The translations under genes were made by a program, and so were the position numbers. The notes under the pieces were generated by a model. That model made no database searches, was not told the DNA's origin, and worked only from the letters and a program-made list of their open reading frames with translations. This document shows, piece after piece, positions 15,098 to 57,376 of a stretch of 64,000 bases of DNA. The DNA is from a virus, in the IMG/VR virus record IMGVR_UViG_3300028024_000105, positions 1 to 64,000 of that record; one strand, written 5' to 3'. The stretch's first letter is position 1. Each line of letters begins with the position of its first letter.

Positions 15098-16273
15098 ATG
15101 CGGTGCAAGGAAAACATCGTGGACCTGCCGGAGCTGACCCAGCGCCTGAAGACGGAGTCGGCGCGGACCCGGGACCTGCTCGCGCGCGCGGACGTGTGCG
15201 ACGTGCTCACCGACGGCAAGGAGACCCTCTTCAAGGTGAACGGCCGGGCCTACCGGATCGAGGAGCAGACCCACGGCCAGCTCGCGGGCAAGACGGGCGT
15301 GCCCAAGGCGTACTACGACAAGATGAAGCTCGATGCGCCCGAGCTGCTCGCCGAGAACCTGAACCACTGGCTGCACCAGAGCAAGAAGACCCATCTCGTC
15401 CGGCTGATGGACGACGCCGTCCGTGCCTTCCTGTCCGACCGCTACCGCCCGATCAACCACCTGGATCTGGTCACCGTCGCGATGCAGGTCCTCTGCGGGA
15501 TGGACGGGCAGGCCGGGGAAGCCAAGCCCCACGCGCGCGGCGCCCGCTGCATGTCGTGGGACCTGACGCCCACGATGCTCGACGTCCGCTTCGTCAACCC
15601 GGCCATCTGGGTCGACCTGGAGAAGCTCGACGAGGGCCTGCACATCGACACCGACCTGACCGACGACGAGATCGAGAAGCGCATCATGCGGCGCGGGCTC
15701 GCGGTCGACCGCACGGACTGGAGCGACACGACGGTCTACCCGTCGGCGCTGCTCTACAACAGCGAGACCGGCCACGGCGGACTCGGCATCGAACCCGGCC
15801 TGATGGAGGGGCTCTGCATCAACTTCAACTGGTACGGCAAGTCCCTCGAGCAGCGGCATCTCGGCAAGACGCTCGAGATGGACGACATGTTCTCGAGCGA
15901 GACCTACAAGAAGATGAACGCCGTCGTCTTCTCGAAGGCCGCCGACACCTTCCGGTCGGTGTTCGAGCCCGAGCAGTTCCTCGTGTCCTGCAGGCGCTTC
16001 GCGGGCCTGAAGGAAGTCGAGATCGACGTCAAGGACGCGGTCGACAACATCGTCGAGCTGCCCGGCATGACCGAGGGCCTGCGTGACGACATCATGCAGA
16101 CCTACCTGCTCTACAAGTCCCACGGCAAGCGCAAGCACGACAACCTGTTCGACCTGAACCGCGCGGTCACGGAAGTGGCCCAGAAGGTCGAGAACCCCGA
16201 GCAGGCGCTGGCCCTGGAACAGCTCGGCGGCGAGCTGATCCTGACGGGCGGGGATTCGAAACTGATTTCCTGA
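15098..16273 (+). CDS. DUF932-like phage protein
   Basis: QLA..TGVP..YY.KM...PEL...NLN.WL, RAFLSDRY, NSETG.G, C.N; strong SD. Confidence 0.7.
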   Translation: MRCKENIVDLPELTQRLKTESARTRDLLARADVCDVLTDGKETLFKVNGRAYRIEEQTHGQLAGKTGVPKAYYDKMKLDAPELLAENLNHWLHQSKKTHLVRLMDDAVRAFLSDRYRPINHLDLVTVAMQVLCGMDGQAGEAKPHARGARCMSWDLTPTMLDVRFVNPAIWVDLEKLDEGLHIDTDLTDDEIEKRIMRRGLAVDRTDWSDTTVYPSALLYNSETGHGGLGIEPGLMEGLCINFNWYGKSLEQRHLGKTLEMDDMFSSETYKKMNAVVFSKAADTFRSVFEPEQFLVSCRRFAGLKEVEIDVKDAVDNIVELPGMTEGLRDDIMQTYLLYKSHGKRKHDNLFDLNRAVTEVAQKVENPEQALALEQLGGELILTGGDSKLIS

Positions 16274-16336
16274 AGCGTCTTACGAGACGAGGGACGACGG
16301 TAGTACAGTCGTCCGTGCGACCGGTAGTTGCAGTAC

Positions 16337-16368
16337 GGGGCCGAGGGGTTCGAAACCTCTCGGCCCCA
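16337..16368 (+). ncRNA. tRNA minihelix (acceptor stem plus T arm only)
   Basis: GGGGCCG-AGGGG-TTCGAAA-CCTCT-CGGCCCC-A: 7+5 bp with a T-loop. Confidence 0.55.
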
Positions 16369-16389
16369 CGATCATCGGTCCAAGAGATT

Positions 16390-16480
16390 GAAGATTTCCG
16401 GAAGTGCCTGTTCGAATCGGGCGGCGAGGATTAGTCCTCGCTTGGTGTAATTGGCAGCACACCGGAGCAAAAGATTTTTC
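16390..16480 (+). ncRNA. Circularly permuted tRNA-like RNA (YrlA Y-RNA-like topology)
   Basis: Order: TCCGG, T arm, acceptor stem closed by TTAG loop, D arm, CCGGA; the two ends pair. Confidence 0.75.
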
Positions 16481-16520
16481 AAATTCCGCTGGTGGGGATC
16501 TCGATACAGCCAGCGGACAT

Positions 16521-16594
16521 GGGGTCCTCGTTCAACAGAAGGACCGCTGCTTTGCAAGCAGCAGATGCGAGTGCGATTCTCGCGGACTCCACCA
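16521..16594 (+). tRNA. tRNA-Ala(TGC)
   Basis: GGGGTCC/GGACTCC with G3:U70, anticodon arm GCTGC-TTTGCAA-GCAGC, encoded ACCA; atypical T loop TGCGATT. Confidence 0.9.
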
Positions 16595-16700
16595 AATTTC
16601 GGCGAGCGGTGCACGAACAAGAGCCACAATAAGGTCTCCGCACCTGTGGCCAGTAAAGGATGCACTCACGGACTCGCCGCAATATTTTGTCCAAGTAGTT

Positions 16701-17050
16701 ACCAACGAAGACGACGAACGACACACGACAGACGAAACCACCACACATCTAGCGCTGGCTTAGGAAGCTCCGGCGCATCTTCAGGAGCTACCTACCTGGG
16801 CCGCGTACGTCGCGGCTCGGTCGTGCTCTTTCCAAAAGCAAGACAACGGATACAGACCCCTTCCAGACGAACGGATGAAACCGCCGTCGTAGTGGTCCGC
16901 GAGGATCAGTGGGGGTTGTGCTGGCGCTGTACGCGGCGGTAAAGCTACACCTGGACGCTTCCTTCGGGACGGCACGACAAAATCTATACCCGACACACTT
17001 GGGACATCCCCTCAAGTCTGTGGCGTTGTCTGAACAAATTCACGCCTTCC
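16701..17050 (+). ncRNA. Putative structured ncRNA
   Basis: No credible ORF; starts 5 nt after GTCCAAG; A/C-rich 5' tract followed by many hairpins. Confidence 0.5.
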
Positions 17051-17148
17051 GAGAAGCGTAGGTGGCGCTCTGCCCCGACACGCCTTGGGACTTGCGGATT
17101 TCATCCGCGCTCCGCTCAAGTCTCCTGAACGCAAGCGTCCTACGGAAC

Positions 17149-17472
17149 ATGATGAACGAGAACGCATGCAGGCTGGACAGCCCCGGCTGGTGCTACGAGC
17201 ACGATCAGGCAGTAGAGAACTGCCTTCACTTCTTCCGCCTGTCCCGCAAGCTCCAGCACGACATCGTTTCGCTGCAGAAGGAGCGGATCGAGACCCTTGA
17301 GGGACAGCTCGGACACGCCGCCGATCTGTGCGGGCAGGCCAAGGACGTCCTCGTGAAGTCCGAAGAAGCGCTCGACCTGGAGCGCGCCAAGGTGACCTAC
17401 GAACAGGCCGAGAACGACGCGCTGCACGTCGAGAACTATCTGCTGCGCGAGCTGCTGAAGGCAGTGCTCTGA
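17149..17472 (+). CDS. Coiled-coil hypothetical protein (leaderless)
   Basis: ATG 5 nt after CGTCCTAC. Confidence 0.6.
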   Translation: MMNENACRLDSPGWCYEHDQAVENCLHFFRLSRKLQHDIVSLQKERIETLEGQLGHAADLCGQAKDVLVKSEEALDLERAKVTYEQAENDALHVENYLLRELLKAVL

Positions 17473-17474
17473 TC

Positions 17475-17606
17475 GTGCGGAAGGTGTTCGAAGGCTGCGT
17501 GTGCGCCGCTGCCGTGATCCTGTGCCTCGCCATCTTCGTGCTGACGGTCGTGAACCAGATGGTCGGTTTTTACCGGTTGCTCTGCTGGATCTTCGGAAGG
17601 AGCTGA
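17475..17606 (+). CDS. Small membrane protein
   Basis: Hydrophobic 43-aa ORF filling the gap between genes. Confidence 0.4.
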   Translation: MRKVFEGCVCAAAVILCLAIFVLTVVNQMVGFYRLLCWIFGRS

Positions 17607-17610
17607 TCTC

Positions 17611-17835
17611 GTGAAGCATCTCCACATCCTGCTGTTCACTCCTGCTTCGGAGCCCGCCGTGAAGCCGGGCACGAAGACCTATGTCTTCAACGGCCACCTG
17701 TACCTGGTCGCGACGCGGATCGTCGTGCACGGCGAGTTCACCCTCGAGCAGCAGGCCGAGACCGCCGAGAAGATCGCGCGGGCGCTCGGCCACGCCTGCT
17801 ACACGTTCGGCCTGATCGTGGATTCGGAGCGCTAG
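17611..17835 (+). CDS. Hypothetical protein
   Basis: AAGGAG SD, GTG start. Confidence 0.55.
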   Translation: MKHLHILLFTPASEPAVKPGTKTYVFNGHLYLVATRIVVHGEFTLEQQAETAEKIARALGHACYTFGLIVDSER

Positions 17836-17837
17836 CC

Positions 17838-18500
17838 ATGAATCTCGGCGACCGCATGAAGGCGTACGAGACGGCGACGCACTTCGTCCTGCCCGTCCGC
17901 ATGCCGGTGATCATCCGTCTGGACGGCAAGGCGTTCCACACACTGACCCGGGACTGCCTGAAGCCGTTCGACAGCACGCTCCGGCGGGCCATGGTTGAGG
18001 CGACGCTGGCTCTCCTGGACGAGATCCCGGCCCGGGTCGCCTACCACCAGTCCGACGAGGTCTCGCTGCTCCTGATCGACTACAACCTGTTCAACAGCCA
18101 GCAGTGGTTTCGCGGGCAGATCCAGAAGATGGCCAGCGTCGCGGCGTCGATCATGGGCGCCGAGTTCAGCATGAACTGGGGCAGCCCCGGCTACTTCGAC
18201 GCCCGGGTGTTCGCCGTTCCCGAGCGAGACGTCGAGAATTACTTCCTGTGGCGCCAGCGCGACGCCATGCGGAACGCCATCAGCGGCGCGGCGCAGGCGT
18301 ACTTCCCACCCGCCGCCCTGCACGGCCTGGACACCACGGCGATGATCGTCCTGCTCGACCAGATCGGCGTCACCTTCGAGGAGTACCCGGCCTGGTACCG
18401 GCGCGGCACGCTCGCGATGCGCGGACTCGCCGTCTCGGCGCCGGATTTCTCCGGGCCGGAGCACGTGATCCAACAGTTCCTCGAAATCGAAGAGCAGTAG
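17838..18500 (+). CDS. tRNA(His) guanylyltransferase Thg1-like protein (3'-5' polymerase)
   Basis: RMKAYE, IIRLDGKAFH, QSDEVSL, FDARVF, YFLWRQRDA.RN. Confidence 0.93.
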   Translation: MNLGDRMKAYETATHFVLPVRMPVIIRLDGKAFHTLTRDCLKPFDSTLRRAMVEATLALLDEIPARVAYHQSDEVSLLLIDYNLFNSQQWFRGQIQKMASVAASIMGAEFSMNWGSPGYFDARVFAVPERDVENYFLWRQRDAMRNAISGAAQAYFPPAALHGLDTTAMIVLLDQIGVTFEEYPAWYRRGTLAMRGLAVSAPDFSGPEHVIQQFLEIEEQ

Positions 18501-18665
18501 TTCCAAGATTCCTGTGGTGCCGCGTCCTACGGACCATGGGAACCGCGACGAGGGCTGACGGGCCGCCATCGCGTGTAAGACTCTTCACGGTCGTGTCCGG
18601 GTCGCCGGACCGGCGAGGATCTGCTCCATTAAAATCCTGATCTCTTTCTCTATACGGAGGGCGCC

Positions 18666-19094
18666 ATGAAGCGATTCGCGATGTTCCTGGGTCTCCTGCT
18701 CGTCCTGACGATGTTCAGCGGCTGCACCGCCGTCCCGCCCGATCCGGGCCCGAACGCCCACGTGAAGTTCGAGGAATTCAAGACGACCGGCACGCACACG
18801 ATCAACAAGGAGACGTCGGCGGAACACGACCTGGTCGTGACCTTCTTCGACACGTCGGGCGTGATGCTCGCGTCGATCAAGTGCGAGCACGGCATGACGC
18901 TGCTGAACGGATCGCAGGCGGCCGACCTGTACAAGCGCCTGACCGCCGGTCGCGACAAGCCGCGAACCCCGCTCACGAATCCCGAACAGGCCAGCTACGC
19001 GCCGAAGACTGGAGCAGCTCGAATGTGTGAGCTGTGCGAGATCGCGGCGATGCGCCACGCGGGCTGGCGGCTGTCGAACCGAACCGACATCTGA
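18666..19094 (+). CDS. Predicted lipoprotein
   Basis: MKR, hydrophobic stretch, FSGC lipobox; GGAGG SD. Confidence 0.65.
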   Translation: MKRFAMFLGLLLVLTMFSGCTAVPPDPGPNAHVKFEEFKTTGTHTINKETSAEHDLVVTFFDTSGVMLASIKCEHGMTLLNGSQAADLYKRLTAGRDKPRTPLTNPEQASYAPKTGAARMCELCEIAAMRHAGWRLSNRTDI

Positions 19095-19200
19095 CGAACC
19101 GACCATCGGGCTGTAACAGGGGAGCAAGCAGTAAAGACCAGCCCGCCCCCGAAGCGCGCAGTACGGCGCACGGGCTGGCAAAAATTGTGAGGATGAAGAC

Positions 19201-19539
19201 ATGAAAGACGTGACCGAGACGCTGGCCCTGGGGATGGCCGACCTGAGCACCAAGGAGCTGCGGAACCTGAAGTTCCACCTGGAGAAGAAGTCCCCGATCA
19301 TCTGCGGGAAGGATGCCAATCTGTTCGCGAAGCCCGGATGCGGCTGTCCCGCGACGCTCGCGGCGGCCCGCCGCCTGCCCAAGGACACGACGCGCTGGGG
19401 GTCCGGCTCCGTGAGCGACGCGTGGGAAAAGATCACGAACGCCACGGGCGGCAACAAGTTCTACAACGCGCTGCGCAAGGCCCAGCCGCGCCACGTCCGC
19501 GCCGCCATCGAGAAGGCCCTGGAGCTGCGCGGCATCTGA
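19201..19539 (+). CDS. Hypothetical protein
   Basis: Coding-like codon usage, SD. Confidence 0.55.
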   Translation: MKDVTETLALGMADLSTKELRNLKFHLEKKSPIICGKDANLFAKPGCGCPATLAAARRLPKDTTRWGSGSVSDAWEKITNATGGNKFYNALRKAQPRHVRAAIEKALELRGI

Positions 19540-19549
19540 CGAGGACAGC

Positions 19550-19858
19550 ATGAACGAGAACAAGCCCGCTCCCGAGCTGATGCGGATCGTCGACAAGGAC
19601 CGCATCGTGCCCATCAAGCACGGACCGCCGAACAAGGTGAAAGGTCCGGGTCTCCTGGCGCGCATCCACGCCGCCAAGAGCGTCGACGAGGTCGACAGCT
19701 TGGTGCGCGAGGGAAGCCTCTACCGTGGGGCGTCGATCCGGACCCGTCAGCGCTGGGTCCGCGCGGCAGCCAACCGGAAGGTGGCCATCACCGCCCCGGC
19801 GCCGCAGCCCAAGGCCGAGCAGCCGAAGAAGGACAAGAAGCCACCCAAGCCGAAATAG
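19550..19858 (+). CDS. Basic hypothetical protein
   Basis: GAGGA SD; Lys/Pro-rich tail. Confidence 0.55.
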   Translation: MNENKPAPELMRIVDKDRIVPIKHGPPNKVKGPGLLARIHAAKSVDEVDSLVREGSLYRGASIRTRQRWVRAAANRKVAITAPAPQPKAEQPKKDKKPPKPK

Positions 19859-19882
19859 ACGCATCTCGCGTCACCTTCGGCC

Positions 19883-20015
19883 GACCGCAGGGCGAGCGCC
19901 GTATCAGCGGCCCGCGCCCGGAAGAGTGCAATAGAGCCGCAACGTCTACTGATAATAGCGCGCGGTTCACTGGTCTTGAAAGCCAGACTCGCGGGATCGT
20001 AACCCGCTGCGGTCA
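19883..20015 (+). tRNA. Atypical tRNA-like gene, Ser(TGA) anticodon, greatly expanded D arm
   Basis: GACCGCA/TGCGGTC acceptor; CTGGT-CTTGAAA-GCCAG; T arm GCGGG-ATCGTAA-CCCGC; about 80 nt between acceptor and anticodon arms. Confidence 0.6.
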
Positions 20016-20022
20016 AATTTCT

Positions 20023-20123
20023 GGGGTCGTGGCGAAAGAGGGCAAACGCGGGGTGCGCCCTGGACCCTGTCTGAGCAGGTCGACCTGAACTCGGACTTGA
20101 TGGTTCGACTCCATCCGGCCCCA
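20023..20123 (+). tRNA. Atypical class II (Leu-like body) tRNA-like gene with degenerate anticodon arm
   Basis: GGGGTCG/CGGCCCC-A; D arm GCG-AAAGAGGGCAAA-CGC; T arm GATGG-TTCGACT-CCATC; very long variable arm. Confidence 0.65.
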
Positions 20124-20356
20124 ACAAAATTAAGCGTGTCGGTCTCGCGGAGTGAGTGCGGCAAGGAGTGGCCCAAGCCGTGCAATGCCCTGAAAAGGAC
20201 TCCCGACCACCCGAGACCGGCAATCTTGGCCTGCGTTGCAGCGTGGGCCGGTGACCGTGATGCTGGAGCAAAGGGCGCCGCACAGGCTCGTGTCGATCAT
20301 CACCCGGTTCAAGCGCGCGAGATCCTGACGCCGGGGGCGGCCACGGTCACCAGAAT

Positions 20357-21799: not shown

Positions 21800-22182
21800 T
21801 CAAGCCGGACTGTTACGGCAGGCTGCACGATCCGAAGAACACATGGTGCAAGGGCTGCGCGCTCTTCCTACCCTGCGCCATCGCTTCCGCCAAGGCGCCG
21901 CCGGGCGACATTGCCGAAATAGGCCACATCACGAGGAGTCCAAGCGAACGCCCCAACCTATTCAAGGAGGGCTCGCGCGCCTGGGCTGCCTGCCGGGCCG
22001 CGAACCTGAAAGGCGGGACGTTCCGAGAATCCGAGATCCTGCCGCTGTACATGGCGACCTGCCGTGCCTGGGGCATCGAGCCCGGCAGCGCGGAGCGAAA
22101 CGTCCACCACGCCGTCGTGCAAATGGTGAAGCGGGGCGTCCTACGGAGAGTACGGAAATCCTACATGTCTCATGCTGACTGA
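21796..22182 (+). CDS. Hypothetical protein, N-terminal Cys cluster, possible winged helix
   Basis: CYG..D....CKGC....C. Confidence 0.55.
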   Translation: MIKPDCYGRLHDPKNTWCKGCALFLPCAIASAKAPPGDIAEIGHITRSPSERPNLFKEGSRAWAACRAANLKGGTFRESEILPLYMATCRAWGIEPGSAERNVHHAVVQMVKRGVLRRVRKSYMSHAD

Positions 22183-25100
22183 CGCCGACTTCACCGACCT
22201 GCACGTCCATTCCAGTTTCTCTCTCCTAGACGGCGCCGCGAATCCCGAACAGTTGCTCGAGGCCAGCCAGCGTCTGGGCCGAAAGCACATGGCCGTGACG
22301 GATCACGGGAACGTCGACGGCTGGCTCCGATTCCAGAAGGCCGCCAAGAAGATGGACGTCAAGCCCATCTTCGGCATCGAGCTGTTCATGCTCGAGAACT
22401 TCGAGGAGCGCCACACCGGCAAGCCAAAGAACCTCCACCTGACGGCCATCGCCAAGACCGAGCAGGGCCTGGGCAAGCTCGTGCAGGCGTGCGGCTTCGC
22501 GAACATGGAGGGGATGGGAAAGAGCGGCTACGCCGCCCGGCCGTTCCTTCCGATGGACTACCCCATCGTGAACAAGTGGCCCGGCGACGTGATCATCATG
22601 ACCGGCTGCGCCAGCTCGCCTTTCTGGAACGCCGCCGACGGGATCGAGCTGCTCGGCTACTACGCCGACGCGTTCAAGGGCGACCTGTACGCGGAGATCA
22701 TGCCGAACGAGGAGTTCGAGCTGCAGAAGACGATCAACGCGTCGGCGATGCAGGCCGCGAGCTACTTCGGGATCAAGCCGGTGGTCACCACCGACATCCA
22801 CTACATCTCGCCCGAAGACAGCGAGTTCCACGAGGTCGTCATCGGCCTGTCCCAGAAGTACATGACCTGGAGCAACCCGAAGCGCTGGAAGTTCGAGTCG
22901 CACAACAACTACGTCCACAACATCACGCAACTAGTCGAATCCCTCATGCGCATGGGCCTGACCGAAGAGCAGGTCCGGCAGATGGTGTTCAGCACCAGCG
23001 AGATCGCCGAGAAGACCATCCACAAGATCCACCAGCCGACCATCAAGTTGCCGCCAGTGATCGGAGACATCAGTGAAGAAGAAGAGCGAGAGCGGTTCCT
23101 ACAGCTCGTCCTCGACGGGCTCCGCACCCGAGGCGTTGCGAACACGCCCGGGTATCTCGAGCGCGTCGCGGCCGAATACGACATCATCGCTCCCAAGGGC
23201 TTCGTCCGGTACATGCTCATGGTTTGGGACGTGGTGCGCTGGGCCAAGTCGCACGGCATTCTTATCGGTCCGGCGCGCGGTTCTGTGGGTGGGAGCCTGG
23301 TTGCGTTTGCTCTTGGAATAACCGACATCGACCCGATCAAGTACCGGCTCTGGTTCGAGCGCTTCATCGACCCCGAGCGCATCGACATGCCGGACATCGA
23401 CATCGACATCGAGGACCGCAACCGACACCTGGTCGAGCAGTACCTCAAGGAGAAGTACGGCCAGTGGAACGTCGCGCACGTCTCGACCTTCGCGTCGATG
23501 CTGGGCAAGATGGCGCTGAAGGACGTCGGCCGCCTGTTCGAGGTCCCGCTCGCCGAAGTGCAGAAGATGTGCAACTGCATCATCCACGCACACGAGTCGG
23601 ACGTCCGAGCGCACCTGACGATTCAGGACACCATCGCGAGCGGCGACGCGACGGCCGTCGAGTTCCAGAAGAAATACCCTCATGTCGTCCACTTCGCCCA
23701 GAAGCTCGAGGGGCAGGTCCGTGGGTGCGGCATCCACGCGGCCGGGTTCGTGATCTCCGACGAGGACCTGCGCACGTCGGCGCGCGCCTACCTAGTCACC
23801 CGGCGCGACAAGGTCACGATCAACTGGGACAAGAACGACGCCGAATCCATGGGCTTCGTCAAGCTCGACCTGCTCGGGCTGCAGACTCTGTCGGCCGTCG
23901 CCGAGGCATCGCGTCTGATCGAGGCGCGCCACGGACGCAAGATCGACTTCACTCAGCTCCCCCTGGATGACCCCAAGACGTACGAGATGATCCAGCGCGG
24001 CGACACGGTGACCTGCTTCCAGATCAACACGCCCAGCATGCAGAGGTACTGCGCGAAGCTGAAGCCCGAGAACTTCGAGCACCTGGCCGCCATCACCGCG
24101 CTGTGGCGCCCCGGCCCAATCCAGTCCGGCGCCGCAGACATGTACGCCAAGTGCAAGAACGGCCTGGAGCCTGTCCACTACGCCAGCGACGCCTTCAAGA
24201 GCATCACCGAGATCAGCTACGGGCAGATGATCTATCAGGAGCAGGTTGCCCAGATGCTGATGAAGCTGGCGGGCTACACCTACGCGCAGGCCGACAAGGT
24301 CCGCAAGATCGTGTCGAAGAAGGGCGGCGTTCAGGCGTGGGACGACGAGGAGCCCAAGTTCGTGGCGGGCTGCGAGAAGATCGGCCTGCTGAACCCCGAT
24401 CAGGCACACGAGCTGTGGCAGTCCTCCAAGATGTTCGCGCTCTACGCGTTCAACCGTGCGCACTCGGTCGGCTACGGCATGCTGGCCTACTGGACCGCGT
24501 ACCTGAAGGCGAACTACCCGGCCGAGTGGCTCTGCTCGTTCCTGAACTACGGCAACGCGGACCGCGAGGATCTGAAGACCGGGGAGATCAACCGAGATGT
24601 TGCTCTGCGCGAGGCCCTGCGCTCGGGCATCGAGATCCTGGTCCCCGACATCAACGAGTCCGACGTGATCTGGACCGTGGCAACGACCAAGCACAACAAG
24701 CCCGCCCTTCGGGTCGGCCTGCAGGACATCAAGTTTGTCGGCGAGACGGCTGTCGAGGAGATCCAGAAGCTGAAGTCCCGTACCCGCCAGATCGAGACGC
24801 TCGAGAAGTTCGTGCTCGAAGGGGTCGACCGGCGCTGCTGCAACAAGAAGGTGATCAAGGCTCTATTCTACTGCGGCGCTTTCGATCAGATCATCTCGCC
24901 CGACATCTACGACCGCTGGGTGAAGCAGTACGACCAGATGTACGACACCATGGAGAAGCCCAAGAAGCGGGCCGAGCTGCTTGCGACCGCCGTTCCTGAA
25001 GGTGAGAAGCAGGAGATCATCGCGCGCGAGCGCAACATCTTCCTGCGGTTCGATCCTCTCGCCATCGACGGTGCGAACGCGGCCGAGCGCATGGCCAAGA

Positions 25101-25798
25101 TCCTGGGAGGCACGCTCGACCTGGACGCCGAGGAGCCCTTCATCCAGCGTGGCGAACTGAAATGGCCGGTCTCCGATGCTACTCTTGGATTGCTGCCCGG
25201 CGCCAACGGCGTGCTCGGCGAACGTCCGGCGGACGTCCGGCAGATCCGCAAGGACACCAAGGACTGCCAGCTCTGCGACCTGCGTGGCTCCTGCAAGGCA
25301 CCCGTGCCCGTCGACCCGGGCCAGCTCGACATCATGGTGGTGGCCGAGGCGCCCGGGAAGAACGAGGACAAGGTCGGCAAGCCGCTGATCGGAGACTCCG
25401 GAAACGTGCTCTGGCCTGAGCTGGAGCGTCTCGGTGTCTCTCGCGAGATGGTCTACGTCTCGAACTCCGTCAAATGCCTGCCCCCGGCGAAGACCAAGCC
25501 CACGCCCGAGCAGATCGACGGTTGCCCGTGGCTCGAGAAGGAGATCAAGGCCATCAAGCCGAAGACCATCCTGGCGCTGGGCAACTCCGCGCTCTACTAC
25601 TTCACGGGGAAGGAGAAGGGCATCATGGAGATGAACGGCAAGACGGAGTGGAACACCAAGGCGAACGCGTGGGTGACCTTCTGCATCCACCCGGCCAATC
25701 TGCTGTACGCGCGCGAGGCCGAGGAACTGGCGTCCCGGGAGCTGATGTTCCGCGAGGCGTTGACCGAATTCGCGCGGGTCATTTTTCAATTTGCATGA
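22172..25798 (+). CDS. dnaE: DNA polymerase III alpha subunit with C-terminal family-4 UDG domain
   Basis: PHP DLHVHS/TDHG; GPARGS, FERFIDPER..MPDIDID, KLDLLGL, YAFNRAHS; C-terminal CxxC..C, AEAPG, NSVKC.PP, HPA. Confidence 0.95.
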   Translation: MLTDADFTDLHVHSSFSLLDGAANPEQLLEASQRLGRKHMAVTDHGNVDGWLRFQKAAKKMDVKPIFGIELFMLENFEERHTGKPKNLHLTAIAKTEQGLGKLVQACGFANMEGMGKSGYAARPFLPMDYPIVNKWPGDVIIMTGCASSPFWNAADGIELLGYYADAFKGDLYAEIMPNEEFELQKTINASAMQAASYFGIKPVVTTDIHYISPEDSEFHEVVIGLSQKYMTWSNPKRWKFESHNNYVHNITQLVESLMRMGLTEEQVRQMVFSTSEIAEKTIHKIHQPTIKLPPVIGDISEEEERERFLQLVLDGLRTRGVANTPGYLERVAAEYDIIAPKGFVRYMLMVWDVVRWAKSHGILIGPARGSVGGSLVAFALGITDIDPIKYRLWFERFIDPERIDMPDIDIDIEDRNRHLVEQYLKEKYGQWNVAHVSTFASMLGKMALKDVGRLFEVPLAEVQKMCNCIIHAHESDVRAHLTIQDTIASGDATAVEFQKKYPHVVHFAQKLEGQVRGCGIHAAGFVISDEDLRTSARAYLVTRRDKVTINWDKNDAESMGFVKLDLLGLQTLSAVAEASRLIEARHGRKIDFTQLPLDDPKTYEMIQRGDTVTCFQINTPSMQRYCAKLKPENFEHLAAITALWRPGPIQSGAADMYAKCKNGLEPVHYASDAFKSITEISYGQMIYQEQVAQMLMKLAGYTYAQADKVRKIVSKKGGVQAWDDEEPKFVAGCEKIGLLNPDQAHELWQSSKMFALYAFNRAHSVGYGMLAYWTAYLKANYPAEWLCSFLNYGNADREDLKTGEINRDVALREALRSGIEILVPDINESDVIWTVATTKHNKPALRVGLQDIKFVGETAVEEIQKLKSRTRQIETLEKFVLEGVDRRCCNKKVIKALFYCGAFDQIISPDIYDRWVKQYDQMYDTMEKPKKRAELLATAVPEGEKQEIIARERNIFLRFDPLAIDGANAAERMAKILGGTLDLDAEEPFIQRGELKWPVSDATLGLLPGANGVLGERPADVRQIRKDTKDCQLCDLRGSCKAPVPVDPGQLDIMVVAEAPGKNEDKVGKPLIGDSGNVLWPELERLGVSREMVYVSNSVKCLPPAKTKPTPEQIDGCPWLEKEIKAIKPKTILALGNSALYYFTGKEKGIMEMNGKTEWNTKANAWVTFCIHPANLLYAREAEELASRELMFREALTEFARVIFQFA

Positions 25799-34124: not shown

Positions 34125-34678
34125 AGACCCCGCTCCGATCCTTTCTCCGTCCGGACGCCTACGCGCCGTTCTTCAGCTTCGGACGCCGGATAGCATCGCC
34201 CGAAGCCTTCTTCCATGGTCTCAAGTTCCGGCACGGATCGCCATTGCAGAGCGCGGTCATGATGGAGCGCGAGTTGGCGCAGTACCGTGGCCGCCCGTTC
34301 GCTCGCCGGACCTATATCTTCGCGGGCTTCCACTTCGGCGTCGACACCCTAGAGCACTATCTCCTGCTCAAGACCGTGATGCGCAGCAAGTTGACCCAGC
34401 ACAAGCAAGAGCTGCTGTGGTTGATGGACGACACGGTCCTGGAGGACTACGGCCGCCTAGGCGGCTGGCACGGAGACGGCTTCGGAGGTCCCGAGTACGC
34501 TCGGATCATCCGCGAGCTGCGACAGGAGTTCCAGTGCCGTCTCGAGGAGACCGGCTCCATCAACTTCACATCCGCCAGCGAATTCAGCGCCATGACGAAC
34601 AGGCAGTTCTTGTTCGGCGACACCCACGGCGTGCGTCCGCACCACAAGAGGCGAGCCCATGAGTCAGTTCAAGGTTGA
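34121..34678 (+). CDS. Hypothetical protein
   Basis: GTGA start/stop overlap; coding-like codon usage. Confidence 0.55.
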   Translation: MKTPLRSFLRPDAYAPFFSFGRRIASPEAFFHGLKFRHGSPLQSAVMMERELAQYRGRPFARRTYIFAGFHFGVDTLEHYLLLKTVMRSKLTQHKQELLWLMDDTVLEDYGRLGGWHGDGFGGPEYARIIRELRQEFQCRLEETGSINFTSASEFSAMTNRQFLFGDTHGVRPHHKRRAHESVQG

Positions 34679-35672
34679 GATCGTCCGCGTCGGCAAGATC
34701 GGCAAGCACCCCAACGCCGACACTCTGTCGGTCACGCACGTGTTCGATTTCCCCGTGGTGTTCCGGACCGGAGACTTCATCGAAGGCCAGAAGGCTGTCT
34801 ACGTGCCCGTGGACTCGCTCGTGCCCACTGATCGGCCGGAGTTCGAATTCCTGAAGGAAGAAGGCAAGACGCACGCGCGGATCAAGGCCAAGAAGCTGCG
34901 CGGCATCTTCTCGATGGGCATGATCGTCCCGATCTGCGTTGCGACGTTCGGCGAGCGTTGCGCGGAGCTGGGTGACAACGTCGCCGAGCTGCTGGGCGTC
35001 ACCAAGTACGAACCCGAAGTCCCGATGCACTGGGGCGGCCAGAACGAGCGCGACCCCGGCTTCATCCCGGTCTACACCGACATCGACCATTACCGCCGGT
35101 ATCCCGACATCCTGCAACCCGGAGAAAACGTCATCGTGACGGAGAAGCTGCACGGCGCCAACGCCCGCTTCACCTTCCACGAGGGACGGCTGTGGGTCGG
35201 CTCGCACAACTGCATCAAGCGAGACGCGCCCGAAAGCATGTGGTGGAACATGGCCCGGAAGTACCAGCTCGCCGAGCGACTGGCCAAGTTCCCCGGCCAT
35301 GTCTTCTACGGCGAGGTCTACGGCCACGTGCAGGACCTGAAGTACGGCTCGAAGGGGCCTGTCGACACCTGGTTGCGGTTCTTCGACGTCTTCAAGTGGA
35401 GCACCGGCAGCTACGCCGACCAAGACGAGACGGCCAACATCATCCTGGGGCTGGGCCTGAACATGGTGCCGCTGCTCTACGTCGGCGGCTGGCAGCCCGA
35501 GTTCATCCTCCCTCTGGCCGACGGATCGACGACGCTCGGAGGCCAGTGCATTCGTGAAGGCATCGTGATCAAGCCCGCCAAAGAGCGGCGAGACGACCGG
35601 CTCGGCCGCGTCATCCTGAAGCACGTCAGCGAAGGATACCTCACGCGGAAATCCGGAACCGAATACCACTAG
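34659..35672 (+). CDS. RNA ligase, DRB0094/Rnl5 family
   Basis: N-terminal OB (HPNAD.L, LRG..S.G), TEKLHGAN, YGEVYG, FDV, VPLLY, REGIVIK, LK. Confidence 0.9.
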   Translation: MSQFKVEIVRVGKIGKHPNADTLSVTHVFDFPVVFRTGDFIEGQKAVYVPVDSLVPTDRPEFEFLKEEGKTHARIKAKKLRGIFSMGMIVPICVATFGERCAELGDNVAELLGVTKYEPEVPMHWGGQNERDPGFIPVYTDIDHYRRYPDILQPGENVIVTEKLHGANARFTFHEGRLWVGSHNCIKRDAPESMWWNMARKYQLAERLAKFPGHVFYGEVYGHVQDLKYGSKGPVDTWLRFFDVFKWSTGSYADQDETANIILGLGLNMVPLLYVGGWQPEFILPLADGSTTLGGQCIREGIVIKPAKERRDDRLGRVILKHVSEGYLTRKSGTEYH

Positions 35673-46790: not shown

Positions 46791-47030
46791 GAGCGAGAAG
46801 CCGACGTAACCCGGGGCTGCACCTGTACGTAGCTGCGCACCGTACAGCAGGGCCTGCCAATACCGGGGTACATCGCTCAAAGACAGCTCGTCGGGCGCGA
46901 ACGCGGGCGAAAACGGCCGTAGCGTGACAGCCGGAGAGACGGCAAAAATTCGCCCTGGTGGTGGCTTTCTGCTGCTTCACCACCTTCGCCGCGTTGGAAG
47001 CCGAGCAGCGTCACGACGCGGACAGGGTTG
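46791..47030 (+). ncRNA. Putative structured ncRNA(s)
   Basis: Predicted TSS G46791 equals the first base of closing stem GAGCGA/TCGCTC(46873-78); further hairpins to about 47030. Confidence 0.55.
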
Positions 47031-56959: not shown

Positions 56960-57376
56960 ATGAGCGGTCACATCCTTGGCGACATCTCTTCCCAGAAACT
57001 CCCCGAGCGATTCAGCGCGAGCTACTTCTTCGAGCGCGACTGTTGGATCGACTGCCGGGTTCCTGAGATGATCACCATCGACCCCACGGCCGAGATCGGC
57101 TGGGAGGTCAAGATGGTCTGCATGTCGCACGACATCAACCCCGGTATGTTCGGCCGCCTGGTCGGACGCCCCATCAAGATCGGCGCAAAAGCCTTCATCG
57201 CGGGGTTCGCGCTGTTGTACAATTGCGAGATCGGCGAAGGTGCCGTCGTCGCCGTGGGCTCGGTGGTGAGAAGCCAGAAGGTCGAGCCCTGGACGGTTGT
57301 GGCCGGGAATCCGGCCGTGCCCGTGAAGCGCTACGACTGGGGCCTGAAGAAGTGGGTCCCGATCCCGCCCCCGTAG
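56960..57376 (+). CDS. Hexapeptide-repeat O-acetyltransferase (leaderless)
   Basis: PIKIG..AFI, IGEGAVVAVGSVV, VAGNPA. Confidence 0.85.
   Translation: MSGHILGDISSQKLPERFSASYFFERDCWIDCRVPEMITIDPTAEIGWEVKMVCMSHDINPGMFGRLVGRPIKIGAKAFIAGFALLYNCEIGEGAVVAVGSVVRSQKVEPWTVVAGNPAVPVKRYDWGLKKWVPIPPP

What the first reader, a model, noticed from the sequence alone, without database searches (positions are those of the whole stretch)
16289..20351. Candidate new system: array of tRNA-mimic RNAs flanking a Thg1-like enzyme
Seen: two non-coding blocks (16.3-17.05 and 19.86-20.35 kb) hold one near-normal tRNA and at least four tRNA-shaped RNAs. Each keeps the acceptor/T-arm module but remodels something else: no D/anticodon arms, permuted, giant D arm, or broken anticodon with giant variable arm. 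Stems are intact, arguing against simple decay. A Thg1-like 3'-5' polymerase sits between the blocks and an Rnl5 ligase is at 34.7 kb. Inference: a decoy/repair toolkit against tRNA-targeting host defences, or non-ribosomal aminoacyl carriers.
Basis: partly seen in the sequence, partly recalled or inferred. Interest (0 to 1): 0.85.

Follow-up and report, generated by a model that had tools for sequence, protein, structure and literature searches.

The report
Phage island of tRNA look-alike RNAs
Two gene-free stretches of an uncultured soil phage hold one working alanine tRNA, four differently rebuilt tRNA-shaped RNAs and other folded RNAs around a tRNA-end-repair enzyme gene, but I found no evidence that RNAs and enzyme form one conserved system.

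Summary
The window is a 96.8-kb IMG/VR soil-phage record with T4-like replication genes. Gaps 16274-17061 and 19859-20356 are non-coding. They hold:
- one tRNA-Ala(UGC), a subtype also found in an unrelated phage;
- a 7+5-bp acceptor/T-arm minihelix;
- a circularly permuted, closed-acceptor tRNA mimic of the YrlA design, with no Ro60 gene in the record;
- a Ser(UGA)-anticodon tRNA shape with about 80 nt in place of the D arm;
- a Leu-type body with a 4-bp "anticodon" stem and a roughly 30-nt variable arm;
- an EGFOA-family RNA and several long hairpins.

The gene between the blocks is a bacterial-type Thg1-like protein (TLP). The ligase at 34.7 kb is of the Naegleria Rnl5 type.

The "one system" reading is only partly supported. 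One other contig (L173) puts a permuted mimic, tRNAs, three RNA ligases, a Macro domain and a TLP within 8 kb. But 39 of 47 TLP-carrying phages have no tRNA within 6 kb of the TLP gene. I found no relatives of three of the odd RNAs, so conservation is untested.

Thg1 in phage RNA repair and YrlA-type mimics are already published. This scan has noted Ro60-less mimics in other phages before.

Verdict: real, unusual, a new variant of a known kind.

The parts
16292..16333 (+). Two hairpins (7 bp with a 9-nt loop; 6 bp with a 5-nt loop) just upstream of the minihelix. Both loops contain GGTA, as D loops do.
   Evidence: Fold, (z -5.0 together with the minihelix).
16337..16368 (+). Acceptor/T-arm minihelix: 7 bp plus 5 bp, T loop TTCGAAA, then A, then CGA (no CCA). 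Its acceptor differs by one base from that of the 20023 element.
   Evidence: Local match to the Rfam mascRNA model across its acceptor and T arm (22.7 bits, below cut-off).
16392..16470 (+). Circularly permuted tRNA mimic of YrlA design: stem, 4-nt variable loop, T arm, closed 8-bp acceptor, D arm with GG, stem.
   Evidence: Aligns with YrlA-type units of L031/L033. Scores 72.8 bits with model R1, but it was one of the five sequences R1 was built from, so this shows self-consistency, not an independent match. No Rfam YrlA hit at E<=10.
16485..16517 (+). Hairpin abutting the 5' end of tRNA-Ala.
16521..16596 (+). tRNA-Ala(UGC) with G3:U70 and encoded CCA. Unusual elbow: T loop TGCGATT and no GG in the D loop.
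   Evidence: Same subtype in L392 with five compensatory pair changes.
16598..16682 (+). Long imperfect hairpin RNA of unknown kind.
   Evidence: z -1.9.
16857..16977 (+). EGFOA-family RNA (Rfam RF02955 relative).
   Evidence: 29.6 bits against a cut-off of 37.7, E 0.014. 16 IMG/VR loci share both conserved motifs, and the stem around the second motif covaries.
17838..18500 (+). Thg1-like protein (TLP), a template-dependent 3'-5' RNA polymerase.
   Evidence: PF04446 3.8e-25; phrog_4717 1.5e-66; PDB 4KGK 2.3e-46. The D29 and S72-D73-E74 columns are invariant in alignment A1.
19883..20013 (+). tRNA-shaped RNA: perfect 7-bp acceptor, about 80-nt structured insert in place of the D arm, Ser(UGA)-type anticodon arm, 4-nt variable loop, T loop ATCGTAA, then A. 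No CCA.
   Evidence: z -2.5. Partial local tRNA-model match, 16.4 bits. Trailer shared with tRNA-Ala.
20023..20124 (+). tRNA-shaped RNA: Leu-type acceptor and D arm, 4-bp stem with 9-nt loop at the anticodon position, about 30-nt two-tier variable arm, canonical T arm, then A. No CCA.
   Evidence: z -1.3.
20136..20224 (+). Structured RNA closed by an 11-bp stem, kind unknown.
   Evidence: z -3.5.
20251..20351 (+). Long hairpin domain closed by a 10-bp stem, at the point where the convergent gene on the opposite strand ends.
34659..35672 (+). Rnl5-type ATP-dependent RNA ligase with an N-terminal OB domain.
   Evidence: PF09414 7.9e-25 and PF21189 4e-14; PDB 5COT 2.3e-20.

Best explanation
The two blocks are the small-RNA and tRNA island of a soil phage with T4-like replication genes. 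It encodes one decoding tRNA-Ala, an EGFOA-family RNA and four non-decoding tRNA look-alikes.

Each look-alike keeps the half of a tRNA that processing and end-acting enzymes read: the stacked acceptor and T arms, and for three of them the D-loop/T-loop elbow. The decoding half is missing or rebuilt.

Inferred mechanism:
1. The RNAs are transcribed together with the flanking + strand genes.
2. Host RNase P and 3'-end enzymes cut them out as they do tRNAs.
3. They then bind proteins that recognise tRNA shape. They would act as competitors or decoys for host tRNA-damaging enzymes, or as cofactors of RNA repair in the way proposed for YrlA.

The TLP and the Rnl5 ligase are genuine phage tRNA end-repair enzymes. 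They probably serve the same conflict. A direct, dedicated partnership with these RNAs is not shown.
For: Shown:
- The blocks are non-coding.
- Three of the record's four strict T arms lie in 1.3% of its length.
- All helices of the four mimics are paired. The additions are themselves perfect helices, and they are not repeated elsewhere in the genome.
- The motif CAAAWTT occurs three times in 96.8 kb, each time directly after the 3' end of tRNA-Ala, the 19883 element or the 20023 element. This suggests shared 3' processing.
- The minihelix and the 20023 element share an acceptor.
- The permuted element aligns column for column with units that Rfam's YrlA model recognises.
- tRNA-Ala is a conserved phage subtype, with compensatory changes in L392.
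- L173 is an independent island combining a mimic, tRNAs, a TLP and three ligases.

From the literature:
- The tRNA-like domain of YrlA folds like tRNA. The M. smegmatis form is cut by RNase P and CCA-tailed. tRNA-like RNAs are proposed to aid RNA ligation (bioRxiv 10.1101/312249).
- Thg1 and RNA ligases are listed as jumbo-phage RNA-repair enzymes (PMC7824862).
Against: - I found no relative of the minihelix, the 19883 element or the 20023 element, so there is no covariation evidence for them.
- Two of the folds have weak z-scores (-1.3 and -2.0).
- For the 19883 element the acceptor pairing spans 120 nt, and a second 5' partner exists at 19936.
- TLP genes in other phages are usually not next to tRNAs or mimics.
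- No phage CCA-adding enzyme, RtcB or Ro60 gene is in the record. The record is about 73% complete.
Confidence: 0.4

Rival explanations
1. They are relics. The phage once had a larger tRNA array, and these are tRNA genes on the way out. They were rearranged by deletions and insertions, and any transcripts have no function.
For: - They are singletons with no detectable relatives.
- Standard tRNA models miss them.
- None encodes CCA, whereas both canonical tRNAs do.
- In other phage loci, about 3 in 10 strict T arms lie outside ARAGORN-called tRNAs, in TLP flanks and control loci alike, so odd tRNA-like pieces may be common by-products of tRNA arrays.
Against: - Decay should break helices. Here every stem is paired, the T loops of three of the four are canonical, and the extra parts are long perfect helices.
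- The permuted element needs a precise rearrangement that matches a known functional design.
Confidence: 0.25
2. It is a dedicated system. The TLP acts directly on these RNAs, or uses them as guides or decoys, together with the ligase, to defeat tRNA-targeting host defences.
For: - The TLP lies between the two blocks.
- L173 combines a permuted mimic, tRNAs, Rnl5, Rnl1, a Macro domain, a TLP and RtcB.
- L031/L033 and L063 have permuted mimics 3-5 kb from a TLP.
- An RNA ligase lies within the flank of 25 of 163 TLP loci, and is directly adjacent in L050 and L010.
Against: - 39 of 47 TLP phage records have no tRNA within 6 kb of the TLP, and tRNA density is not raised there.
- None of 9 closed-acceptor mimics found by pattern has a TLP in its flank.
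- No acceptor stem here has the 5' mismatches or truncation that TLPs repair.
- The ligase is 16 kb away.
- A ligase near 15% of TLPs is close to what two ligase genes per 180-kb genome would give by chance (my estimate).
Confidence: 0.15
3. They are processing punctuation. The tRNA-shaped modules serve mainly as RNase P and 3'-end cleavage sites that cut a long early or middle transcript into separate mRNAs and protect their ends.
For: - Both blocks sit between + strand genes, or at the end of a + strand unit, and no sigma-70-like promoter lies inside them.
- The elements share a 3' trailer motif.
- tRNA-like 3'-end formation by RNase P is known for mascRNA (cited in 10.1101/312249).
Against: - One or two such sites would be enough.
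- A closed-acceptor permuted mimic is a poor RNase P substrate according to the YrlA literature.
- The diversity of bodies is left unexplained.
Confidence: 0.12
4. They are chargeable, non-decoding amino-acid carriers: Leu on the 20023 element, and others, feeding a non-ribosomal aminoacyl transferase.
For: - The 20023 element has a Leu-type D arm and A73.
- From my own knowledge, E. coli LeuRS does not read the anticodon.
Against: - None of them encodes CCA.
- No aminoacyl-transferase gene was seen among the proteins I scanned.
- The permuted element has no free end at all.
Confidence: 0.05

Closest known systems
YrlA (Y RNA-like A, Rfam RF02553), partner of bacterial and phage Ro60/Rsr
   Same: The permuted element has the same order of parts (stem, variable loop, T arm, closed acceptor, D arm, stem). 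It keeps the T-loop and D-loop GG positions needed for the elbow.
   Different: No Rfam YrlA hit even at E<=10, a different D-stem sequence, no recognisable Ro60-binding helix and no TROVE gene in the 96.8-kb record.
Phage RNA-repair gene sets (RNA ligases, polynucleotide kinase/phosphatase, CCA-adding enzyme, Thg1), as surveyed for jumbo phages in PMC7824862
   Same: A TLP plus an ATP-dependent RNA ligase in one phage genome that also carries its own tRNAs.
   Different: The enzymes here are 16 kb apart, and no kinase/phosphatase, CCA-adding enzyme or RtcB was found. The survey describes tRNAs and a Ro60-type protein with its tRNA-like partner, but I did not find in the passages read any array of remodelled tRNA shapes.
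EGFOA RNA (Rfam RF02955)
   Same: 16857-16977 shares both conserved sequence blocks and the covarying stem.
   Different: It scores below Rfam's cut-off, and it is not tRNA-like, so it is not part of the proposed mimic set.
tRNA minihelices and mascRNA-type RNase P substrates
   Same: A 7+5-bp acceptor/T-arm stack with a canonical T loop and an unpaired base after the 3' strand.
   Different: It is encoded as such in a phage genome, preceded by two hairpins and not followed by CCA. Processing is untested.
[quoted passage not shown]
   Same: A tRNA look-alike in an RNA-repair gene context.
   Different: There is no Band-7/SPFH gene or RtcB here. I could not read that paper.

Membership tests
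tRNA (RF00005), for 16521-16594 | Score above Rfam's gathering cut-off, with a full cloverleaf. | tested here: met
   50.4 bits against a cut-off of 29; ARAGORN calls Ala(tgc).
tRNA (RF00005), for the four odd elements | Score above the cut-off. | tested here: not met
   No hit, or a 16.4-bit partial hit, at E<=10. ARAGORN finds them only at a lowered threshold, and then with mismatched stems.
YrlA (RF02553), for 16392-16470 | Permuted tRNA-like domain: T arm, closed acceptor, D arm, inside a stem. | tested here: met
   Aligns with L031/L033 units that RF02553 matches at 33-37 bits. The R1 score of 72.8 bits is circular, because this element was one of R1's five training sequences.
YrlA (RF02553), for 16392-16470 | Score above Rfam's cut-off (69 bits). 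| tested here: not met
   No YrlA hit at E<=10 in 4.4-kb and 0.6-kb searches.
YrlA (RF02553), for 16392-16470 | A Ro60/Rsr (TROVE) gene in the same genome, usually adjacent. | tested here: not met
   PF05731 is absent from the 96.8-kb record. The record is about 73% complete, so absence from the whole phage is not proven.
YrlA (RF02553), for 16392-16470 | A long terminal helix with the conserved Ro60-binding site. | tested here: inconclusive
   Only short A/U-rich pairings flank the module. There is no shared handle like those of L031 or L063.
EGFOA (RF02955), for 16857-16977 | Score above Rfam's cut-off (37.7 bits). | tested here: not met
   29.6 bits, E 0.014.
EGFOA (RF02955), for 16857-16977 | The conserved sequence blocks and the stem enclosing the second block. 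| tested here: met
   Both blocks are present. 16 IMG/VR loci share them. Two stem pairs covary: GC/UA, and CG/UA/AU.
Thg1-like protein (TLP) | Thg1 catalytic domain above the Pfam cut-off, closest to bacterial TLPs rather than eukaryotic Thg1. | tested here: met
   PF04446 at 88.8 bits against a cut-off of 29.2. 4KGK (B. thuringiensis TLP) at 2.3e-46, against 1e-7 for human and yeast Thg1.
Thg1-like protein (TLP) | Template-dependent 3'-5' addition to 5'-truncated tRNA. | not testable with these tools
   This is an enzyme assay. The conserved acidic residues are present.
Rnl5 (Naegleria-type RNA ligase) | Nucleotidyltransferase domain plus an N-terminal OB domain. | tested here: met
   PF09414 and PF21189. 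5COT at 2.3e-20 over residues 10-306.

The most novel reading that the evidence does not exclude
The phage carries a tailored set of non-decoding tRNA decoys, each presenting a different part of a tRNA: an acceptor end only, a body without ends, a Ser anticodon arm on a foreign body, and a Leu body without an anticodon. The decoys would soak up different host tRNA-targeting defence enzymes, while the TLP and Rnl5 mend the tRNAs that do get hit. That would be a combined decoy-plus-repair counter-defence not yet described.
Probability: 0.12. Interest if true: 0.85.

Novelty: new variant of a known kind. Interest (0 to 1): 0.5.

Why it matters
Phage tRNAs, RNA ligases and Thg1-like enzymes are thought to counter host attacks on tRNA. 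tRNA-shaped Y RNAs are known, but their job is unclear.

A single phage carrying four different "partial tRNAs" beside such enzymes would be a compact test bed. Each RNA isolates one face of a tRNA, so binding and protection assays could show which host or phage proteins read which face.

It also adds to the cases where a YrlA-type mimic exists without Ro60. That suggests these mimics have partners other than Ro60.

Tried and rejected
**Looking for relatives**
- Megablast and blastn against GenBank phages matched only the tRNA-Ala part.
- Protein-anchored searches with the upstream DUF932-like gene and the TLP found no syntenic relative in IMG/VR, the JGI metagenomes or the GTDB genomes.
- An 82%-identical DUF932-like protein sits on an 83.9-kb NCBI contig, and 60-65% TLPs sit on Logan contigs.
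- A minihelix pattern scan gave one unrelated hit, L177.

**Expression and population variation**
- No RNA holder was listed; the only run holding the stretch is the probable source soil metagenome.
- Laying its contigs showed no variants.

**Association tests**
- TLP against tRNA density: no enrichment.
- Orphan T arms are more frequent near TLPs than in control loci, but only in proportion to tRNAs.
- Pattern-found closed-acceptor mimics: 0 of 9 have a TLP or a Ro60 gene in the flank.

**Ideas rejected**
- The inserts in the 19883 and 20023 elements are mobile repeats: there are no other copies.
- The upstream 391-aa protein is Ro60-like: its relatives carry PF06067, DUF932.
- The 20023 element is part of a permuted tmRNA: only 10 bits, E 7.5.

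**No result**
- The protein atlas gave nothing for the 74-aa gene ahead of the TLP. The first two tries did not complete.
- Relaxed ARAGORN cloverleaves have mismatched acceptors and were not used.

Full report
**Source and setting.** The window is the first 64 kb of a 96.8-kb IMG/VR virus record, about 73% complete by CheckV. It has 63% G+C, and the only sequencing run that holds it is a soil metagenome.

Gene calls from third-position G+C give this + strand order:
- helicase, DnaB, primase, and a DUF932-like gene (15098-16273);
- gap 1 (16274-17061);
- two small genes, the Thg1-like gene (17838-18500), and three small genes, one of them a lipoprotein;
- gap 2 (19859-20356);
- a convergent trypsin-like gene;
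- a sigma-like gene, a DnaE-UDG fusion, gp32, a RecA-like gene, Mre11/Rad50-like genes, and further on the RNA ligase (34659-35672).

ARAGORN and Rfam call only tRNA-Ala(UGC) in the two gaps. A scan for strict T arms finds four on the + strand of the whole record: three in the gaps and one in tRNA-Arg at 57367. If four hits fell at random, three landing in 1.3% of the sequence would be a roughly 1-in-100,000 event (my calculation).

- **Minihelix, 16337-16367.** It has exactly 7+5 bp and a TTCGAAA loop.
- **Permuted element, 16396-16465.** It runs T arm, 8-bp acceptor closed by four bases, then a D arm with GG, all inside a 5-6-bp stem.
- **Element at 19883-20013.** It has a perfect 7-bp acceptor, a Ser(UGA)-type anticodon arm, a T arm with loop AUCGUAA, and about 80 structured bases where the D arm should be.
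- **Element at 20023-20124.** It has a Leu-type start (U8, a 3-bp D stem, a 12-base loop with GGG), a canonical T arm and A73. At the anticodon position there is only a 4-bp stem with a 9-base loop. The variable arm is a 7+4-bp helix of about 30 bases.

Folding z-scores range from -5.0 to -1.3.

Three further details tie the elements together.
- CAAAWTT occurs three times in 96.8 kb, each time right after the 3' end of tRNA-Ala, the 19883 element or the 20023 element.
- The minihelix and the 20023 element share an acceptor, apart from one base.
- The two canonical tRNAs encode CCA, and the three open-ended mimics do not.

The inserts are not repeated elsewhere in the genome.

**What else is in the gaps.** 16857-16977 matches Rfam EGFOA at 29.6 bits, below the 37.7 cut-off. 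A motif scan found 16 IMG/VR loci with both conserved blocks and the same layout, and the stem around the second block covaries. None of those loci has a tRNA or a TLP nearby. So this RNA is an independent passenger, not part of a tRNA-mimic set. A preprint reports that EGFOA RNAs form homo-oligomers (10.64898/2026.07.01.735769).

tRNA-Ala itself is odd: its T loop is UGCGAUU and its D loop has no GG. The same subtype, with the same trailer and five compensatory pair changes, sits in the tRNA array of a 176-kb phage with 46% G+C (L392). It is therefore a conserved phage tRNA type, with G3:U70 for AlaRS.

**The permuted element.** L031 and L033 are phage contigs with a Ro60 gene and an array of Y RNAs about 4.5 kb from a TLP. 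Their units are matched by Rfam YrlA over the tRNA-like domain. The window's element aligns with them part for part. The design is therefore YrlA-like. I built model R1 from those four units plus the window's element, so the element's own R1 score (72.8 bits) is circular.

Family membership fails on three counts:
- no Rfam YrlA hit at E<=10;
- no TROVE gene in the record;
- no shared handle.

Earlier notes of this scan describe similar Ro60-less mimics in other phages. Those were leads only. Here I confirmed one independent case, L173:111-191 (37 bits with R1).

**The enzymes.** The TLP is closest to the Bacillus thuringiensis TLP (4KGK, 2.3e-46) and keeps the invariant acidic residues. The ligase is closest to the Naegleria gruberi Rnl5 (5COT, 2.3e-20) and has its N-terminal OB domain. 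Thg1 and RNA ligases are already listed among jumbo-phage RNA-repair enzymes (PMC7824862).

**Is it one system?** I collected 163 TLP loci, 1.33 Mb in all.
- For: L173 holds a permuted mimic, tRNA-Met, tRNA-Lys, Rnl5, Rnl1, a Macro domain, a TLP, tRNA-Arg and RtcB within 8 kb. Rnl5 is directly next to the TLP in L050 and L010. An RNA ligase lies in the flank of 25 loci. L063 has handle-type Y-like RNAs, one of them a permuted mimic, in a tRNA array 3 kb from a TLP.
- Against: the closest reachable TLP loci (58-60% identity) share no other gene with the window. In 47 whole TLP phage records there are 585 tRNAs in 7.25 Mb, about 81 per Mb. The TLP flanks hold about 46 per Mb, and only 8 of 47 have any tRNA within 6 kb. 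T arms outside called tRNAs are more frequent near TLPs than in control loci, but in the same ratio to tRNAs, 0.40 against 0.43. None of 9 closed-acceptor mimics found by pattern has a TLP nearby.
- No acceptor stem in the window has the 5' mismatch or truncation that a TLP would mend.

The adjacency is therefore suggestive in a few lineages but is not a conserved rule.

**Most likely mechanism.** Shown: these are non-coding, tRNA-derived, helix-intact elements that keep the acceptor/T-arm face. Inferred: they are cut from the + strand transcript by host tRNA-processing enzymes and act as non-decoding tRNA look-alikes that occupy tRNA-binding proteins. The TLP and Rnl5 would serve the same tRNA-damage conflict in parallel.

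The main rival is that they are relics of a shrinking tRNA array. The intact helices and the perfectly paired additions speak against that. Without relatives I cannot test covariation for three of the four.

**Limits.** No RNA data exist for this phage.

**Verdict.** This is a new variant of known kinds (phage tRNA islands, YrlA-type mimics, phage RNA-repair enzymes). Interest is moderate.

Noticed in passing
window 46952-47028 (+): A CyVA-1 RNA (Rfam RF02965) scores above the gathering cut-off (49.4 bits against 41.4), just upstream of the gene at 47028.
   Followed up: no
window 16521-16596 and L392:10232-10313 (-): A phage tRNA-Ala(UGC) subtype with T loop UGCGAUU, no GG in the D loop and the trailer ACCAAAUUU is shared by two unrelated phages (63% and 46% G+C), with five compensatory stem changes. 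A remodelled elbow in a conserved, chargeable tRNA is unexplained.
   Followed up: partly
L173:111-8055: A dense RNA-repair island on a 305-kb contig: permuted tRNA mimic, tRNA-Met, tRNA-Lys, Rnl5-type ligase, Rnl1-type ligase, Macro domain, Thg1-like protein, tRNA-Arg and RtcB.
   Followed up: partly
L063:9184-10026: Small RNAs sharing a repeated 5'/3' handle lie between tRNA genes about 3 kb downstream of a Thg1-like gene. One carries a permuted tRNA module with a 22-nt loop closing its acceptor.
   Followed up: partly
L161:6600-6720; L170:9740-9840; L159:1590-1690: Other non-canonical tRNA shapes lie near phage Thg1-like genes: one with an 11-12-bp acceptor and a large insert, one with a much elongated anticodon arm, and one cloverleaf with two T-arm-like hairpins. 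ARAGORN calls none of them.
   Followed up: no
window 16593, 20014, 20125: CAAAWTT occurs only three times in the 96.8-kb record, always directly after a tRNA or tRNA-like 3' end. It may be a processing or termination signal.
   Followed up: partly
window 22172-25798 (+): A DnaE-type polymerase (PHP, Pol III alpha, HHH) carries a C-terminal uracil-DNA glycosylase superfamily domain (PF03167, 2.1e-24).
   Followed up: no
window 15098-16273 (+): The 391-aa protein ahead of gap 1 is a divergent DUF932 relative (phrog_1362). Mycobacteriophage homologues are about 25% identical. Its function is unknown.
   Followed up: partly
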